A stretch of 64,000 nucleotides of DNA. Source: Escherichia virus TH15. A model generated the notes under the pieces. That model had not been told where the DNA came from. It saw only the letters and a program-made list of their open reading frames with translations, and made no database searches. This document shows positions 943-14,828 of the stretch, piece after piece. The translations under genes were made by a program, and so were the position numbers. The stretch lies in the sequence record MT446392.1. The stretch is one strand, 5' to 3'. Numbering within the stretch: position 1 is the first letter of the stretch; the number at the start of each line of letters is the position of its first letter.

Positions 943-1016
943 GGCCCTGTAGCTGGACGGTCAAGCGAGCGACTCATAATCGCTGGATGGTGGTTCGATT
1001 CCACCCAGGGCCACCA
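943..1016 (+). tRNA. tRNA, anticodon CAT (Met or lysidine-type Ile)
   Basis: Cloverleaf: acceptor GGCCCTG/CAGGGCC, anticodon stem AGCGA/TCGCT loop CTCATAA, T-arm GGTGG-TTCGATT-CCACC, encoded CCA. Confidence 0.85.
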
Positions 1017-2794: not shown

Positions 2795-3238
2795 ATGAAA
2801 ACTTCAAAACTGGTTAAGTACGTTAAACTGGCATTAAACAACTCTTCTGAAGCTGAAGCGCAATCCGCAGCGCGTATGTTCTTCAAACGTCTGACAGCTG
2901 AAGGTATTTCATTTAACCCGGCAGTATTTGGTATCACTCGTGGCGAAGCTGCTAAACTGGCAACTCTGGCAGGTAAAATTTTTAAAGGTCTGAATGATGG
3001 ACAGGTTAAACCAGAAGTTAAACCTACTCCTAAAGCTGAACCAAAAGCTGAGTGTAAGGCACCTAAACGCTCCGGTATGAGCAACAAAGATTTATGCTAT
3101 GATATGTTCAAAACTGTTAATATGTCTAATGGTGCTGCTCGCAGAGCTGTTATTGATATGATTGTGCGTGAGTTTGGATTCAACAAAGCATCAGTTCAAT
3201 CTTATGCTTCCAACTTCCGCAAAGAATTTGAAATTTAA
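2795..3238 (+). CDS. hypothetical protein (paralog of 2286..2711)
   Basis: ATG at 2795 after GGGATAATAAA; track ATG 2744 lies inside promoter. Confidence 0.6.
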   Translation: MKTSKLVKYVKLALNNSSEAEAQSAARMFFKRLTAEGISFNPAVFGITRGEAAKLATLAGKIFKGLNDGQVKPEVKPTPKAEPKAECKAPKRSGMSNKDLCYDMFKTVNMSNGAARRAVIDMIVREFGFNKASVQSYASNFRKEFEI

Positions 3239-10148: not shown

Positions 10149-10904
10149 ATGAATTATCTAAAAATATATGAATCTTTAATAGTATCTGCTATTAAAAGAC
10201 CTCTTACACAAGGATACACCGAAAAACATCATATTTTACCGAAATCGATGGGTGGTAATGATTCTATTGATAATTTAGTTACCCTTACCGCCCGTGAACA
10301 TTTTATTGCACACTTATTATTGGCAAGAATTTTTAAGAATCGCGAAATGTGGTCCGCTGCATATATGATGGCTTCAACAAGTCTAACTAACTCGGATAGA
10401 CATAGATGCTCGTCACATTTATATGAATTATTGCGTAAACAAGCGTCGGTATATAATTCAGGTGAAAATTCTCCAAATTGGGGAATAAAACGTTCTGAAG
10501 AAACACGATTAAAAATGTCAATTTCAAAAATGGGTATCAGGAATCCAATGTACGGTATTCCACAATGTTTGGAACACTCTCATAAAATTAGCCTTGGTGT
10601 TACCGAAGCTTTTAAAAATCCAGAAATGAAAGAACGCCACCGTCAAAGTGTTTCTGGAGAGAATAATGGGTTTTATGGAAAAAAACATTCCGAAAAAAGT
10701 TTGGAAAAACAGCGGAATACAAAACGGAAAGGATTTCCTTGGGACAATTATTTGGAATTGTACCCAATTTGGGTTTCATTAAATTGCCCCAAGCATCCAA
10801 CATTCACAAATGAACTTGTTAAATTGGGATACCCCAAAAAGAAGCTTGTTCGAATAGTGGAAGAGTTTAAAAATGAATATATTCGAAATGCTACGCATAG
10901 ATGA
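10149..10904 (+). CDS. HNH homing endonuclease
   Basis: HNH motif [31 protein letters not shown]; inserted between nudE and e. Confidence 0.8.
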
Positions 10905-11361: not shown

Positions 11362-11390
11362 TTTACATCTCCAAACGATAGGGTTATAAT
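11361..11390 (+). promoter_or_regulatory. T4-type early promoter
   Basis: -35 GTTTACA, 17-nt spacer, -10 TATAAT. Confidence 0.65.
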
Positions 11391-11416: not shown

Positions 11417-11833
11417 ATGACTCGCATTAATTTAACCCTGGTATCTGAACTTGCTGACCAACACCTTATGGCTGAATACCGCGAGCTTCCTCGCGTGTTT
11501 GGTGCTGTTCGTAAGCATGTGCAAAATGGTAAAAAGGTGTCTGACTTTAAAATCCCATCATCTTTTCTTTTAGGAACTGGTCATGTCACCTTCTTTTATG
11601 ATAAGCTTTTGTTCCTTAAAAACCGTCATCAAGAACTTATTGCTGAATGTTTAAAGCGAGGGTTTAATATAAAAGATATTTCTACCCAAGATTTAAATGA
11701 TATTCCTGATGAATGGAAGAATGATTATCAACCATCAATCTGGTCAATTGAAATCAGTCAATCCAGACTGAATGAGAAAATTTCTCAAAAGCCTACCTGG
11801 TACAAATACTATGGGAAAGCTGTGTACGCTTAA
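11417..11833 (+). CDS. denV: pyrimidine dimer DNA glycosylase (endonuclease V)
   Basis: [34 protein letters not shown] matches T4 DenV. Confidence 0.95.
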
Positions 11834-11851
11834 CTAAAAAGGTTGTATAAT
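11822..11851 (+). promoter_or_regulatory. T4-type early promoter
   Basis: -35 GTGTACG, 17-nt spacer, -10 TATAAT. Confidence 0.65.
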
Positions 11852-11881
11852 GATTTTATCAACCAAACAATGGAATATAAA

Positions 11882-12145
11882 ATGAAAACTTATCAAGAAT
11901 TTATTACTGAATCTGCCAAAGCTCCTGCTGGTTCCTTTAAAGTCCGTGCCTTCGCTGGTGATGCTGAAGACTTTGGCTCACTGAAGCGCAACGGTTATTC
12001 TTTCTTTGGTGGTGATGGTAAAGAAATTGTTACCTATGCAAAACGTCGCGAAATCGCATTCGTGGTTGCTGGTAAGAAAGTATCCCCAGAAGATATTGAA
12101 GTTGACTTTGAGACCTTTGGTATTGTTTCTGGCGGTAAAGCTTAA
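11882..12145 (+). CDS. internal-protein-like (capsid targeting sequence)
   Basis: Starts MKTYQEFITE, matching the T4 internal-protein capsid targeting sequence MKTYQEFIAE. Confidence 0.6.
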   Translation: MKTYQEFITESAKAPAGSFKVRAFAGDAEDFGSLKRNGYSFFGGDGKEIVTYAKRREIAFVVAGKKVSPEDIEVDFETFGIVSGGKA

Positions 12146-12147
12146 CT

Positions 12148-12176
12148 GTTTACTTTATGATGGGATAGTGTATAAT
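12148..12176 (+). promoter_or_regulatory. T4-type early promoter overlapping the next start codon
   Basis: -35 GTTTACT, 16-nt spacer, -10 TATAAT whose last bases form the ATG at 12175. Confidence 0.55.
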
Positions 12177-12474
12177 GTTAACTTATCAAGAATTTATCAC
12201 AGAAGCCAAAGTTCCTAAAGCATTTCAAATTGGGGTTCAAGGCAATTTAGACCAACAATATGTTGATGCTATTGTAGCAAGCCTCGGTAAACAAGGGGTG
12301 CAAGTGGATTTGGTTGATTTTACCAAAGGCAATACTTTTAATATTGTTACATCTAAAGGTTCTTTAGCTAAAGTTAAAAAGGCCTTTGGCGTAGCACAAG
12401 CATACGAAATCGACCATTCTGAATTCGAAAATAAAGGTCGCCAGAACACAATTAAAGGCTCTGGTTCTTTTTAA
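12175..12474 (+). CDS. internal-protein-like (capsid targeting sequence)
   Basis: Starts MLTYQEFITE; paralog of 11882..12145. Confidence 0.55.
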   Translation: MLTYQEFITEAKVPKAFQIGVQGNLDQQYVDAIVASLGKQGVQVDLVDFTKGNTFNIVTSKGSLAKVKKAFGVAQAYEIDHSEFENKGRQNTIKGSGSF

Positions 12475-12570
12475 TAAAGGCAAACCGACCCTCTCCTCAT
12501 GAACGTCGTGTCCTCTGAGTGATGGACCTTTCCCTACCTGTAATAAGGTCGAGCCCGAGTGCGGTAAGGG

Positions 12571-12600
12571 GTTTACATTCGGATACATGGATGAATTAAT
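12571..12600 (+). promoter_or_regulatory. possible early promoter
   Basis: -35 GTTTACA, 17-nt spacer, weak -10 ATTAAT. Confidence 0.4.
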
Positions 12601-12638
12601 GTGCCAAGGAATGGCCCCAAAACCTTAAGAGAAACAAT

Positions 12639-13184
12639 ATGAGAACTTTTTTAACTGGACCTTATCTATCCCTGATGAATGCTTTTACCCACCATTCTGA
12701 TGCTCGAATAGAAGAACTTTGTAAGACCGATTGTTATATTCCTCCAATGGAAGTCTTGCTCAAAGAATACTGCACACTCCGTATGGATGGCGGGCGACAA
12801 TCAGGTAAATCTACTGCAGTAACTAATTTTGCTGCTAACTGGATTTATGACGGAGGTACAGTAATTGTCCTGTCTAATACCTCGGCTTATGCAAGAATTT
12901 CATCCGATTCTATCAAAAATGATTTTATTCGTTTTAGCGCGGAAGATATTCGTTACCGGCTTTTCCATGATTCATTACGTAGCTTTATCGGTAATAAAGG
13001 TTCTAAATTCCGTGGCCTTGCGCTTTCACGCGTATTGTATATAATTGATGAACCTATTAAAGCTCCTGATATGGACAAGATTTACGATATCCATATGAAA
13101 ACTGTACAACACTGCTGCCATGCTCATTGTTTTAAAACGGGTGAAACAGTTCGTCCTCAATTTTTTGTGATTGGAATGCAATGA
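12639..13184 (+). CDS. small P-loop NTPase
   Basis: Walker A GGRQSGKST and Walker B VLYIIDEP. Confidence 0.65.
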   Translation: MRTFLTGPYLSLMNAFTHHSDARIEELCKTDCYIPPMEVLLKEYCTLRMDGGRQSGKSTAVTNFAANWIYDGGTVIVLSNTSAYARISSDSIKNDFIRFSAEDIRYRLFHDSLRSFIGNKGSKFRGLALSRVLYIIDEPIKAPDMDKIYDIHMKTVQHCCHAHCFKTGETVRPQFFVIGMQ

Positions 13185-13537
13185 TGAATACTATCGAAGT
13201 TTTTGAATATTGTTATAGCAGCTCCGCTTGTAATAAAAAGGCCCTCGTAGAAAACTATGAGATATTCCATTTTAAACCTAAACGGTATCGTTTGACTAAA
13301 GGTCCATTCAAGGGACAACAGGTTCTCTGTACCGCACCAAATGAACGTCTGATGAATATCATTCCATATTTCAAAATGGAATTCATTGGCAGACGTTATA
13401 AAGGGCTAATCACTCAAAGCCTGATGGCTTATGGCTCTGATCCGATTTTGATGGAACAAACCGAATTTAAAAAGTTTTATACAGGTTCAGCCGTTTTAGC
13501 TGAACCTAAAGGCTTTACGGTGGCCCATCATGGCTAA
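13181..13537 (+). CDS. hypothetical protein
   Basis: 118-aa ORF, ATGA overlap. Confidence 0.55.
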   Translation: MMNTIEVFEYCYSSSACNKKALVENYEIFHFKPKRYRLTKGPFKGQQVLCTAPNERLMNIIPYFKMEFIGRRYKGLITQSLMAYGSDPILMEQTEFKKFYTGSAVLAEPKGFTVAHHG

Positions 13538-13748
13538 ATTGATTATCGAAGGTTCTGATGAAGCCTTGAAAAGATTCGTTGAATGGTTTAATGGCCCGGG
13601 CGAACAAGACTTTCTGGAAGTCTGGGACGGTGGTCAATGGAATGGTAAAGAAATGGTTTACCCAACTACCTATATCTCCGTGCAAGGGTGGACTGACAGA
13701 CTTCGTTTGGTAGAATATGATATCGCAACTGGCGAGGAAGTGAAATGA
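13530..13748 (+). CDS. hypothetical protein
   Basis: 72-aa ORF, overlapping start. Confidence 0.5.
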   Translation: MAKLIIEGSDEALKRFVEWFNGPGEQDFLEVWDGGQWNGKEMVYPTTYISVQGWTDRLRLVEYDIATGEEVK

Positions 13749-14008
13749 TTGAAGATATCAAAGGTTACAAGCCACATACCGACGATAAAATCGGTAAAGT
13801 GAACGCTATTAAAGATGCAGAAGTTCGTCTTGGATTGATGTTTGATGCTCTGATTGAAGAAGCATATATCTTGAAAGAAAATGAAACAGAGCAACAAACC
13901 AAAGAAGATATGGATGCAGTGCAGGCTCTTAAGTATGCTAAGCAACATCTAAAAGAAGCCAGCATGTGGGCATGTCGTGCAGTATTTCGACCCGAGGAAA
14001 AATACTAA
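13745..14008 (+). CDS. hypothetical protein
   Basis: 87-aa ORF, ATGA overlap. Confidence 0.5.
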
Positions 14009-14313
14009 TGGCGCAGATTAATTCTGGTTTTGGTTATGAGTTATCAACCGCTTCTCATCGCCGCATAAATGATTCCAATCCGTTTGGATTCACATCGAAA
14101 CAGCCAAAAATTCAAAGTCTAGACGATTTCCAGGAAGTTATTCGTAAGGCCTTTCAGGACTACGGGAACTATCTTAAAGAAGATTCAAACGACTGTCTTG
14201 AAGAAGATGAAATTGCTTACTACGAGCAACGCCTTGAACAGCTTAAGAATTTGCACGCTGTTCGTGCCGAAGTCTCACAATCATTAAATAAGCTAATTCG
14301 TTTTAAAGAATAG
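14008..14313 (+). CDS. hypothetical protein
   Basis: ATG 14008 after GAGGAAAAA SD. Confidence 0.5.
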
Positions 14314-14342
14314 TGTACAAGCAGGTTGAAATGAGTTATGAT
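14314..14342 (+). promoter_or_regulatory. T4-type early promoter
   Basis: -35 GTGTACA, 16-nt spacer, -10 TATGAT. Confidence 0.5.
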
Positions 14343-14369
14343 TATCCCATCAAACAAAAGGAGATAATC

Positions 14370-14828
14370 ATGACTACTATCGATTCAAGTGTTTACATTC
14401 GCCGCAATAAACTTCGTCGTATTTTTGAAACGGAGTTCCTCAAAATTAATAATGCTATCAACAAGGCTTGTAAAGAAGCAGGCCTTGAAGCATTCTTCAT
14501 TAAGTACAGTCCACACCTGTTGGACCGTGCAATCCAACGTGAAATTGACGAACAATATGTTTTTGACTTGTTTGGAAAAATCACACCACATGTAAAAGAA
14601 ATTGTTGAATTCCTGGAGATGAAACCACTCCCGGAAGTTGAAGCACAAATTGACCCGAATGTGAACTACCGTCCACTTCGTCTGGAAATCACAGACAAGA
14701 ACCTATGGTTAGGAATGACAGTTAACCCAGCTCTTCCTGGGAAGTCTCCAACCATGTGTTGTCGTATGGCGTTTGTTAACTCTAATCGTCTGGAAGGAAA
14801 AATTAGCACAAAAGTGATTTATATCTAA
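14370..14828 (+). CDS. regB: RegB endoribonuclease
   Basis: MTTIDSSVYIRRNKLRRIFETEF...HLLDRAIQREIDE matches T4 RegB; ATG 14370 after AAGGAG. Confidence 0.85.
   Translation: MTTIDSSVYIRRNKLRRIFETEFLKINNAINKACKEAGLEAFFIKYSPHLLDRAIQREIDEQYVFDLFGKITPHVKEIVEFLEMKPLPEVEAQIDPNVNYRPLRLEITDKNLWLGMTVNPALPGKSPTMCCRMAFVNSNRLEGKISTKVIYI

What the first reader, a model, noticed from the sequence alone, without database searches (positions are those of the whole stretch)
12639..13184. Stand-alone small P-loop NTPase in the denV-regB interval
A 181-aa protein with a canonical Walker A (GGRQSGKST) and Walker B (VLYIIDEP) but no other recognisable domain, followed by four small overlapping ORFs. I do not recall a T4 counterpart. 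Minimal P-loop proteins in phage accessory regions often act as kinases or regulators of host processes.
Basis: partly seen in the sequence, partly recalled or inferred. Interest (0 to 1): 0.4.

Follow-up and report, generated by a model that had tools for sequence, protein, structure and literature searches.

The report
T4 vs.8: stand-alone terminase-like ATPase
The 181-residue P-loop protein is the counterpart of the known but unexplained phage T4 gene vs.8, a cut-down copy of the ATP-burning core of the DNA-packaging enzyme, and just upstream of it lies a strongly conserved folded RNA that matches no Rfam family.

Summary
The ORF (12639-13184, +) and its Walker A (GGRQSGKS) and Walker B (VLYIIDE) motifs are real. 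The protein is 77% identical to T4 Vs.8 and sits in T4 gene order: e, denV, ip-like genes, vs.8, vs.7, vs.5-like, vs.4 (Acb2), vs.3, regB.

A 2026 paper already reports vs.8 as a terminase-like ATPase that is toxic when co-expressed with the immune sensor EcAvs2. Its function is still unknown. So the protein is already known and only moderately interesting.

The unexpected result lies just outside the coordinates, at about 12476-12590. It is a non-coding element with a likely pseudoknot, conserved at 85-90% nucleotide identity where Vs.8 is only about 36-43% identical. Compensatory base changes support it. It has no Rfam match and no match in bacterial genomes. It also occurs in rV5-like and other coliphages.

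The parts
11362..11390 (+). Sigma-70-type promoter-like site (TTTACA-17-TATAAT, 11 of 12 matches) upstream of denV. It is a possible early promoter for the transcript that reaches vs.8.
   Evidence: This is a consensus match only. The number of sites in the region did not exceed the shuffled expectation.
12149..12176 (+). Promoter-like site (TTTACT-16-TATAAT, 10 of 12 matches) upstream of the ip-like ORF 12175-12474. It is the nearest candidate promoter for the RNA element and vs.8.
   Evidence: consensus match only.
12476..12590 (+). Conserved structured non-coding RNA element. P0 pairs 12476-12480 with 12527-12531 and crosses P1, so the two form a pseudoknot or are alternatives. P1 pairs 12485-12488 with 12579-12582. 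P2 includes 12496-12499 paired with 12516-12519, plus an extension. P3 pairs 12532-12535 with 12568-12571. P4 is an invariant hairpin at 12536-12549. 12550-12564 is a nearly invariant segment.
   Evidence: blastn finds it in 967 phage records, at 85-90% identity in Klebsiella and Kosakonia phages. Covariation is shown. The covariance model R1 scores 131.9 bits, and there is a single copy in the window. No Rfam family matches. It is not a tRNA.
12591..12638 (+). Leader between the RNA core and vs.8. It holds a conserved AUGGAUGA, the hairpin GCCA-AGGAA-UGGC (12603-12615), a 9-codon upstream ORF (ATG 12599 to TAA 12628) and an AAGAG Shine-Dalgarno-like sequence. In T4 and several other phages the same ATG is in frame with vs.8 and has been annotated as an N-terminal extension.
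   Evidence: Sequence read directly. Alignment of 37 copies. The T4 annotation is 219 aa against 181 aa here. Hits of 194-196 aa appear.
12639..13184 (+). vs.8 orthologue: a 181-aa stand-alone terminase-large-subunit-like ASCE ATPase core.
   Evidence: (phrog_1488, E 3e-73).
12789..12812 (+). Walker A / P-loop G51-G-R53-Q-S-G-K57-S58. It carries the P-loop arginine typical of large terminases, compared with gp17 S-R-Q-L-G-K-T.
   Evidence: R53 is kept in 30 of 31 cluster representatives and K57 in 28 of 31.
13011..13016 (+). R125-G126 motif, which aligns with the R-G that precedes Walker B in gp17.
   Evidence: R in 27 of 31, G in 28 of 31.
13032..13052 (+). Walker B strand V-L-Y-I-I-D137-E138, with the catalytic Glu that marks ASCE ATPases.
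   Evidence: D or E in 28 of 31; E in 26 of 31.
13181..13537 (+). vs.7 orthologue (118 aa, 50% identical to T4 Vs.7). Its ATG overlaps the vs.8 stop codon (ATGA), so it is probably translationally coupled to vs.8.
   Evidence: (phrog_2049). It lies immediately downstream, with a 1-4 nt overlap, in nearly all loci that have room.
13530..13748 (+). vs.5-like small ORF (72 aa).
   Evidence: (phrog_1986). The match to T4 vs.5 is weak.
13745..14008 (+). vs.4 orthologue, a member of the Acb2/Tad1 family. From my own knowledge, this family comprises cyclic-oligonucleotide sponges that act against CBASS.
   Evidence: Pfam PF24729 at E 6e-18. It is 66% identical to T4 Vs.4.
14008..14313 (+). vs.3 orthologue (101 aa).
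   Evidence: 71% identical to T4 Vs.3.
14373..14828 (+). regB endoribonuclease orthologue, which marks the end of the denV-regB interval.
   Evidence: 60% identical to T4 RegB.

Best explanation
The ORF is the orthologue of T4 gene vs.8. It encodes a minimal, stand-alone copy of the ATPase core (N-terminal subdomain I) of the T4-type large terminase gp17. Shown: it keeps the nucleotide-binding and hydrolysis residues. These are the P-loop with both Arg53 and Lys57, an R125-G126 motif, and Walker B Asp137 followed by Glu138. It also has a nearly invariant Arg114 and a conserved C-terminal strand ending in G-M-Q-stop. It has the five-stranded parallel sheet of helicase and terminase RecA-like domains. 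It lacks the lid subdomain, the nuclease domain and the long N-terminal region of gp17. Inferred: it binds Mg-ATP and probably hydrolyses it, perhaps only as an oligomer or with a partner. It cannot translocate or cut DNA by itself. It is made early, in one transcript with vs.7 and translationally coupled to it. It serves as an accessory, nucleotide-dependent binding or switch module rather than as part of the packaging motor. Because it preserves the ATP-loaded terminase surface, the host sensor Avs2 can mistake it for terminase; the literature reports toxicity on co-expression. My committed guess for its selected role is a host-takeover or counter-defence factor that acts together with Vs.7. 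This fits its neighbours, which include the anti-CBASS sponge vs.4 and internal-protein genes.
Confidence: 0.6

Rival explanations
1. Vs.8 regulates packaging. As a truncated terminase ATPase it would bind gp17, gp16 or the portal, and either hold the terminase inactive until proheads are ready or help assemble the pentameric motor.
For: It is homologous to exactly the gp17 subdomain that, from published terminase structures and my own knowledge, forms the ring contacts and the active site. Arginines that could act in trans are conserved.
Against: It lies among early accessory genes, far from genes 16 and 17. From my own knowledge of the T4 genome review, vs.8 is not listed among essential or core genes. 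The family is absent from most tailed phages, all of which have terminases.
Confidence: 0.12
2. Vs.8 is an immune decoy. It occupies terminase-sensing receptors such as Avs1, Avs3 or Upx without letting them oligomerise. Avs2 would have secondarily evolved to fire on it.
For: It keeps the ATP-loaded terminase surface but lacks the nuclease domain that some sensors also contact. It is probably expressed early, before terminase is made. An anti-CBASS gene lies three ORFs downstream. Evans et al. raise anti-defence as one possibility.
Against: The only experiment reported shows activation of EcAvs2. The strong conservation of the catalytic Glu and of several arginines is more than a passive decoy should need.
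Confidence: 0.15
3. Vs.8 is a small-molecule or nucleotide kinase.
For: It has a P-loop. There are weak sequence matches to uridine-cytidine kinases at E 0.2-0.6.
Confidence: 0.03
4. Vs.8 works with the structured RNA encoded immediately upstream, as an RNA-ATPase pair or as an RNA-controlled gene.
For: The RNA lies directly 5' of vs.8 on the same strand in nearly every Tevenvirinae locus examined. Foldseek matches include the phi29 and phi28 packaging ATPases. From my own knowledge, the phi29 ATPase works with a dedicated pRNA.
Against: The RNA core also occurs without vs.8 in rV5-like phages, in phage Ivi and in L029. A distant vs.8 homologue has no such RNA nearby. Klebsiella phages have another ORF between the two.
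Confidence: 0.08

Closest known systems
T4 Vs.8 (NP_049732, gene vs.8; RB69 vs.8; phrog_1488)
   Same: It is the orthologue: 77% identity, the same position between denV or the ip genes and vs.7, and the same motifs.
   Different: The T4 record annotates 219 aa. The extra 40 N-terminal residues are read through the conserved RNA element. In this window that reading frame is closed by a stop codon at 12597-12599, so the form of about 180 aa is the conserved protein.
ATPase subdomain I of the T4 large terminase gp17 (PDB 2O0H, 3CPE, 3EZK)
   Different: Only about 115-130 residues align. Vs.8 has no lid subdomain II, no nuclease domain and no region for binding gp16 or the portal. It has its own conserved N-terminal helix (Y9 is kept in 30 of 31). 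It scores below the Pfam cut-off.
Ksap1 and Ksap2, the non-terminase activators of Avs2
   Same: [quoted passage not shown]
   Different: Ksap1 and Ksap2 have no Walker motifs reported, and Ksap1 is only 74 aa. Vs.8 is a true sequence homologue of the terminase ATPase. Whether Vs.8 triggers Avs2 during infection has not been shown.
RecA1 domain of SF1/SF2 helicases (Mfd, DDX1, RIG-I, RecD)
   Different: Helicases need a second RecA domain, which Vs.8 lacks. No helicase family is detected by sequence.
Rfam RNA families, for the upstream RNA element
   Same: It has the hallmarks of riboswitch- or ribozyme-like RNAs: crossing helices, a three-way junction and invariant junction nucleotides.
   Different: None of 4227 families matches at E up to 10, apart from one chance hit (E 7.1, 8.4 bits) on the opposite strand. 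It is not a tRNA or tmRNA.

Membership tests
T4 Vs.8 family (phrog_1488) | Full-length sequence homology to T4 Vs.8 | tested here: met
   77% identity, E 2e-108. phrog_1488 at E 3e-73 over residues 3-181.
T4 Vs.8 family (phrog_1488) | Position in the denV-regB interval, followed by vs.7 | tested here: met
   The gene order matches T4 and RB69. vs.7 follows directly in nearly all loci examined.
Large terminase ATPase domain (Pfam Terminase_6N; phrog_2) | Walker A with a P-loop arginine (R-Q-x-G-K-S/T) | tested here: met
   G-R53-Q-S-G-K57-S aligns with gp17 S-R-Q-L-G-K-T. R is kept in 30 of 31 and K in 28 of 31.
Large terminase ATPase domain (Pfam Terminase_6N; phrog_2) | Walker B followed by a catalytic Glu, preceded by the R-G motif | tested here: met
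   R125-G126 and I-I-D137-E138 align with gp17 R-G and Y-I-D-E.
Large terminase ATPase domain (Pfam Terminase_6N; phrog_2) | Score above the curated family threshold | tested here: not met
   Terminase_6N scores 15.6 bits against a cut-off of 22. phrog_2 reaches E 8e-7 but covers only residues 46-138.
Large terminase ATPase domain (Pfam Terminase_6N; phrog_2) | Lid subdomain II and C-terminal nuclease domain | tested here: not met
   The protein ends at residue 181, directly after the fifth core strand. gp17 has 610 residues.
Large terminase ATPase domain (Pfam Terminase_6N; phrog_2) | Coupling (C) motif after the strand that follows Walker B | tested here: inconclusive
   The conserved C-terminal F-F-V-I-G-M-Q-stop (Q in 24 of 31) lies where the C motif would be. 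The profile alignments stop before it.
P-loop kinases | Kinase-type fold without a catalytic Glu after Walker B, with a lid and a substrate site | tested here: not met
   A D-E pair is present. The top structural matches are helicase and terminase ASCE domains, not kinases. Kinases appear only at E 0.2-0.6.
SF1/SF2 helicases | Two tandem RecA-like domains | tested here: not met
   There is a single domain of 181 aa. No helicase family is found by sequence.
Phage activators of Avs2 | Direct binding to and activation of Avs2 | not testable with these tools
   Reported for T4 vs.8 as toxicity on co-expression plus an AlphaFold 3 model. This orthologue has not been tested.
Any Rfam family (upstream RNA element) | Covariance-model match | tested here: not met
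   Nothing at E up to 1 over 11800-14500. Nothing at E up to 10 in four other loci. Only a chance hit at 8.4 bits on the opposite strand.

The most novel reading that the evidence does not exclude
The element of about 110-150 nt directly 5' of vs.8 (window 12476-12590 plus the leader to 12638) is a previously undescribed class of pseudoknotted phage RNA. It is carried by more than a thousand genomes of T4-like, rV5-like and other coliphages and is absent from bacterial genomes. In Tevenvirinae it forms a fixed unit with the terminase-like ATPase gene vs.8 and with vs.7. It could be a ribozyme-like or ligand- or protein-binding RNA that controls these genes or acts alongside them.
Probability: 0.45. 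Interest if true: 0.7.

Novelty: already known. Interest (0 to 1): 0.42.

Why it matters
Vs.8 is a conserved phage protein that copies the part of the terminase that bacterial immune receptors recognise. Knowing what it does would show why phages keep a gene that can set off host immunity. It would also show whether terminase mimicry is used for counter-defence. For annotation, two corrections follow. The protein is mislabelled in many public records as 'endoribonuclease', 'terminase large subunit' or 'internal head protein'. The T4 record probably extends it by 40 residues through a non-coding RNA. If the upstream RNA is confirmed, it would add a widespread structured RNA to a phage family that has been studied for decades without its being noticed.

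Tried and rejected
- Pfam, NCBIfam and PADLOC scans of Vs.8 gave nothing above threshold.
- A single-sequence search of PDB sequences gave only E of about 0.1 to a conjugation coupling protein. A broader profile was needed to reach gp17.
- The kinase reading was rejected on fold and motifs.
- My first idea that Y33 matches the adenine-binding Tyr142 of gp17 was dropped. Y33 is kept in only 7 of 31 representatives.
- I recalled Ksap1 as an anti-defence protein. The paper calls it 'KpAvs2-stimulating protein 1', function unknown.
- The Vs.7 structure prediction had pLDDT 52 and was not used. Only three homologues of Vs.7 were retrieved.
- RNA element: not a tRNA or tmRNA. No Rfam family. The single-sequence fold is no more stable than shuffles, z 0.22.
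- RNA element, continued: no similarity in 5,426 complete E. coli genomes. No exact core match in 185,579 bacterial and archaeal genomes. No paper in the library contains the core sequence, and a keyword search found nothing relevant.
- A consistent link between the RNA and terminase genes in non-T4 phages was looked for and not found. The neighbours are mostly of unknown function.
- The proposed helix P5 (12554-12556 with 12561-12563) has a conserved C-C mismatch and no covariation, so it stays unsupported. The helix P2a was dropped for the same kind of reason.

Full report
**Observation.** The Walker A motif G51-G-R-Q-S-G-K57-S58 lies at nt 12789-12812, and the Walker B strand V-L-Y-I-I-D137-E138 at nt 13032-13052. 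No Pfam, NCBIfam or PADLOC family reaches significance. Four small ORFs follow, each overlapping the next by 1-8 nt. The ORF is a real gene, because tblastn finds it at full length in 1007 phage genome records.

**Identity.** The statement that there is no T4 counterpart is wrong. The protein is 77% identical (E 2e-108) to residues 41-219 of T4 Vs.8. RB69 annotates the same gene as vs.8, and the family is phrog_1488, function unknown. A BLASTP comparison with T4 gives this gene order in the window: e, denV, two ip-like ORFs, vs.8, vs.7, a vs.5-like ORF, vs.4, vs.3, regB, vs.1, vs, tk.4. Only vs.6 is missing.

vs.4 carries the Acb2/Tad1 hairpin domain (PF24729, E 6e-18). The closest genome is Escherichia virus TH40, at 99.4% identity. 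Public records name this protein inconsistently: 'hypothetical protein', 'endoribonuclease', 'terminase large subunit' and 'internal head protein'.

**Family.** A profile search of 1.84 billion cluster representatives returned only 44 proteins. Apart from fragments and two N-terminally extended gene calls, they are single-domain proteins of about 155-185 aa. The one distant member whose long contig could be read lies in a T4-type genome, between topoisomerase and rII genes.

Across 31 representatives the conserved residues are Y9 (30), R53 (30), K57 (28), R114 (28), R125 (27), G126 (28), D/E137 (28), E138 (26) and a C-terminal G-M-Q-stop. Three distant members have lost the Lys, Asp and Glu together.

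Sequence evidence decides between helicase and terminase:
- The Vs.8 profile hits phrog_2 'terminase large subunit' at E 8e-7.
- A 31-sequence profile aligned to gp17 residues 1-360 gives hhalign probability 87% and E 3.7e-6. It places GRQSGKS on SRQLGKT, RG on RG and IIDE on YIDE.
- The three best of 177,635 distinct PDB sequences are all gp17.

Vs.8 stops right after the fifth core strand. It lacks the lid subdomain, the nuclease domain and the first 130 or so residues of gp17. It therefore works like a terminase ATPase core but is not a terminase. BFVD holds similar orphan proteins of 145-175 aa in many large phages.

**Literature.** Only one paper in the library discusses vs.8: Evans et al., Nat Commun 2026 (PMC13601566). 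They found vs.8 in an AlphaFold 3 screen of T4 and phiC120 proteins against EcAvs2. They call it an uncharacterised ATPase-like protein. [quoted passage not shown]

They leave its function open and suggest anti-defence as one possibility. Ksap1 and Ksap2, the other non-terminase activators of Avs2, are also of unknown function. My independent analysis agrees with theirs, so the protein part of the finding is already known.

**Mechanism.** Three things are shown: the motif set, the fold, and the tight pairing with vs.7. vs.7 starts 1-4 nt before the vs.8 stop codon in nearly all loci that have room.

The rest is inferred. Vs.8 probably binds and hydrolyses ATP, perhaps only as an oligomer or with Vs.7. 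It cannot package DNA. It is probably made early, since promoter-like sites lie at 11362-11390 and 12149-12176. It acts as an accessory factor in a region rich in counter-defence genes.

The strong conservation of the catalytic Glu and of several arginines argues against a purely passive decoy. The decoy, packaging-regulator, kinase and RNA-partner readings are kept as rivals with lower weight.

**The upstream RNA.** The 164 nt between the ip-like ORF (which ends at 12474) and vs.8 are GC-rich. They are much better conserved than the flanking genes. blastn finds them in 967 phage records, at 85-90% identity in Klebsiella and Kosakonia phages. In those phages Vs.8 itself is only about 36-43% identical.

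The T4 annotation reads part of this stretch as the first 40 residues of Vs.8. In the window that reading frame is closed by a stop codon.

Alignments of 22-37 distinct copies show compensatory changes in four helices:
- P1: CCGA/UCGG becomes CACAC/GUGUG, CUCGA/UCGAG, CCUG/CAGG, CCAGC/GCUGG.
- P0: AAAGG/CCUUU becomes AAAGC/GCUUU, AAAGA/UCUUU, GGGAA/UUCCC, GGGAG/CUCCC, GGGG/CCCC.
- P3: CCCU/GGGG becomes CUGGC/GCCAG, UCCA/UGGG, ACGCG/UGCGU.
- P2: one C-G pair is deleted on both sides together in four sequences.

P0 and P1 cross, so they form either a pseudoknot or two alternative folds.

The pair counts support the structure. On a plain MAFFT alignment the covariation score is 0.269, against at most 0.077 for slid controls, and 0 of 500 shuffles reach it. 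On a model-fitted alignment, 11 pairs change on both sides, against 5.3 +/- 1.2 in shuffles, again 0 of 500. RNAalifold independently recovers P1, an extended P2 and P4. G-U pairs appear only if the + strand is the one read, so the RNA has the sense of the genes.

The covariance model finds one copy in the window (131.9 bits) and tandem second copies in some phages. No Rfam family matches. It is not a tRNA. There is no similarity in E. coli genomes, no core match in 185,579 bacterial and archaeal genomes, and no paper in the library holds the sequence.

In Tevenvirinae the element always lies just 5' of vs.8. However, the core also occurs without vs.8:
- in rV5-like Vequintavirinae, about 400 nt upstream of a tRNA cluster;
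- in phage Ivi and the related contig L034, after the endolysin gene; in L034 it is followed by an intrinsic-terminator-like hairpin;
- in a contig about 1 kb downstream of a terminase gene.

A distant vs.8 homologue has no such RNA nearby. The RNA is therefore an independent module, and its function is unknown. Its link to vs.8 may be regulatory or only historical.

The leader from 12591 to 12638 carries conserved GGA motifs, a hairpin and a 9-codon upstream ORF. In some phages that upstream ORF is fused in frame to vs.8.

**Caveats on the RNA.** The sequences fall into about five or six clades, so the number of independent substitution events is small. The structure was partly derived from the same sequences on which it was counted. 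P5 and P2a are unsupported. There is no expression evidence.

**Verdict.** The protein is the known gene vs.8, whose terminase-like nature was published in 2026 and whose function is still open. I rate its interest as moderate. The more novel item is the conserved structured RNA immediately upstream, which deserves its own follow-up.

Noticed in passing
window 12476-12590 (core), leader to 12638: A non-coding RNA element with crossing helices (a pseudoknot or alternative folds), supported by compensatory base changes in helices P0, P1, P2 and P3. It is conserved at 85-90% nucleotide identity across phage genera whose flanking proteins are about 40% identical. No Rfam family, bacterial genome or paper in the library matches it.
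   Followed up: yes
L043 1261-1348, L058 about 3038-3125, L034 1894-1937, L029 3750-3841: The same RNA core occurs outside T4-like phages and without vs.8. It is in rV5-like Vequintavirinae near a tRNA cluster and RNA-repair genes, in the 45-kb phage Ivi and the related contig L034 after the endolysin gene (in L034 with a terminator-like hairpin after it), and in a contig 1 kb from a terminase gene.
   Followed up: partly
L023 5078-5168, L028 9103-9194, L052 445-536: Some T4-like phages (one locus, L023, matches the genome length of Edwardsiella phage PEi20) carry a second, more divergent copy of the RNA element in tandem, directly after the first.
   Followed up: partly
L001 5794-5913 (T4 record 64793-64912): The T4 RefSeq annotation of vs.8 (219 aa) extends 40 codons upstream through the conserved RNA element. 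The extension is not conserved in frame in other phages, so it is probably an annotation artefact or a minor isoform.
   Followed up: partly
window 12599-12628: A 9-codon upstream ORF (MCQGMAPKP) starts at a conserved ATG inside the leader and ends 10 nt before the vs.8 start. In T4, Kosakonia phage 305 and several metagenomic gene calls the same ATG is in frame with vs.8.
   Followed up: partly
window 12589-12615: Two conserved GGA motifs: AUGGAUGA, and the hairpin GCCA-AGGAA-UGGC. From my own knowledge they resemble CsrA-binding sites. Alternatively, they may be Shine-Dalgarno-like sequences for the upstream ORF.
   Followed up: no
window 13745-14008: vs.4 orthologue with the Acb2/Tad1 hairpin domain (PF24729, E 6e-18). 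From my own knowledge this is the anti-CBASS cyclic-oligonucleotide sponge family. It lies three ORFs downstream of vs.8.
   Followed up: partly
window 13537-13745 compared with T4 (L001 4558-4920): The T4 gene vs.6 (a GrcA-like glycyl-radical cofactor) is absent from this window. It is present in T4, RB69 and Klebsiella phage Roth16.
   Followed up: no
window 13181-13537: vs.7 is translationally coupled to vs.8 (ATGA overlap), and the pair is conserved across Tevenvirinae genera. Its fold could not be predicted (pLDDT 52). Its homologues in the protein collection carry the precomputed Pfam family PF26834, which my Pfam scan of the window protein did not report.
   Followed up: partly
window 943-1016 and 1151-1226: Two tRNA genes, tRNA-Met (CAT) and tRNA-Arg (TCT), lie about 11 kb upstream of the RNA element.
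   Followed up: no
window 10149-10904: A 251-aa ORF with an HNH-like motif ([25 protein letters not shown]) and repeated NUMOD-like segments sits just upstream of the lysozyme gene e and overlaps its start. From my own reading it looks like a homing endonuclease.
   Followed up: no
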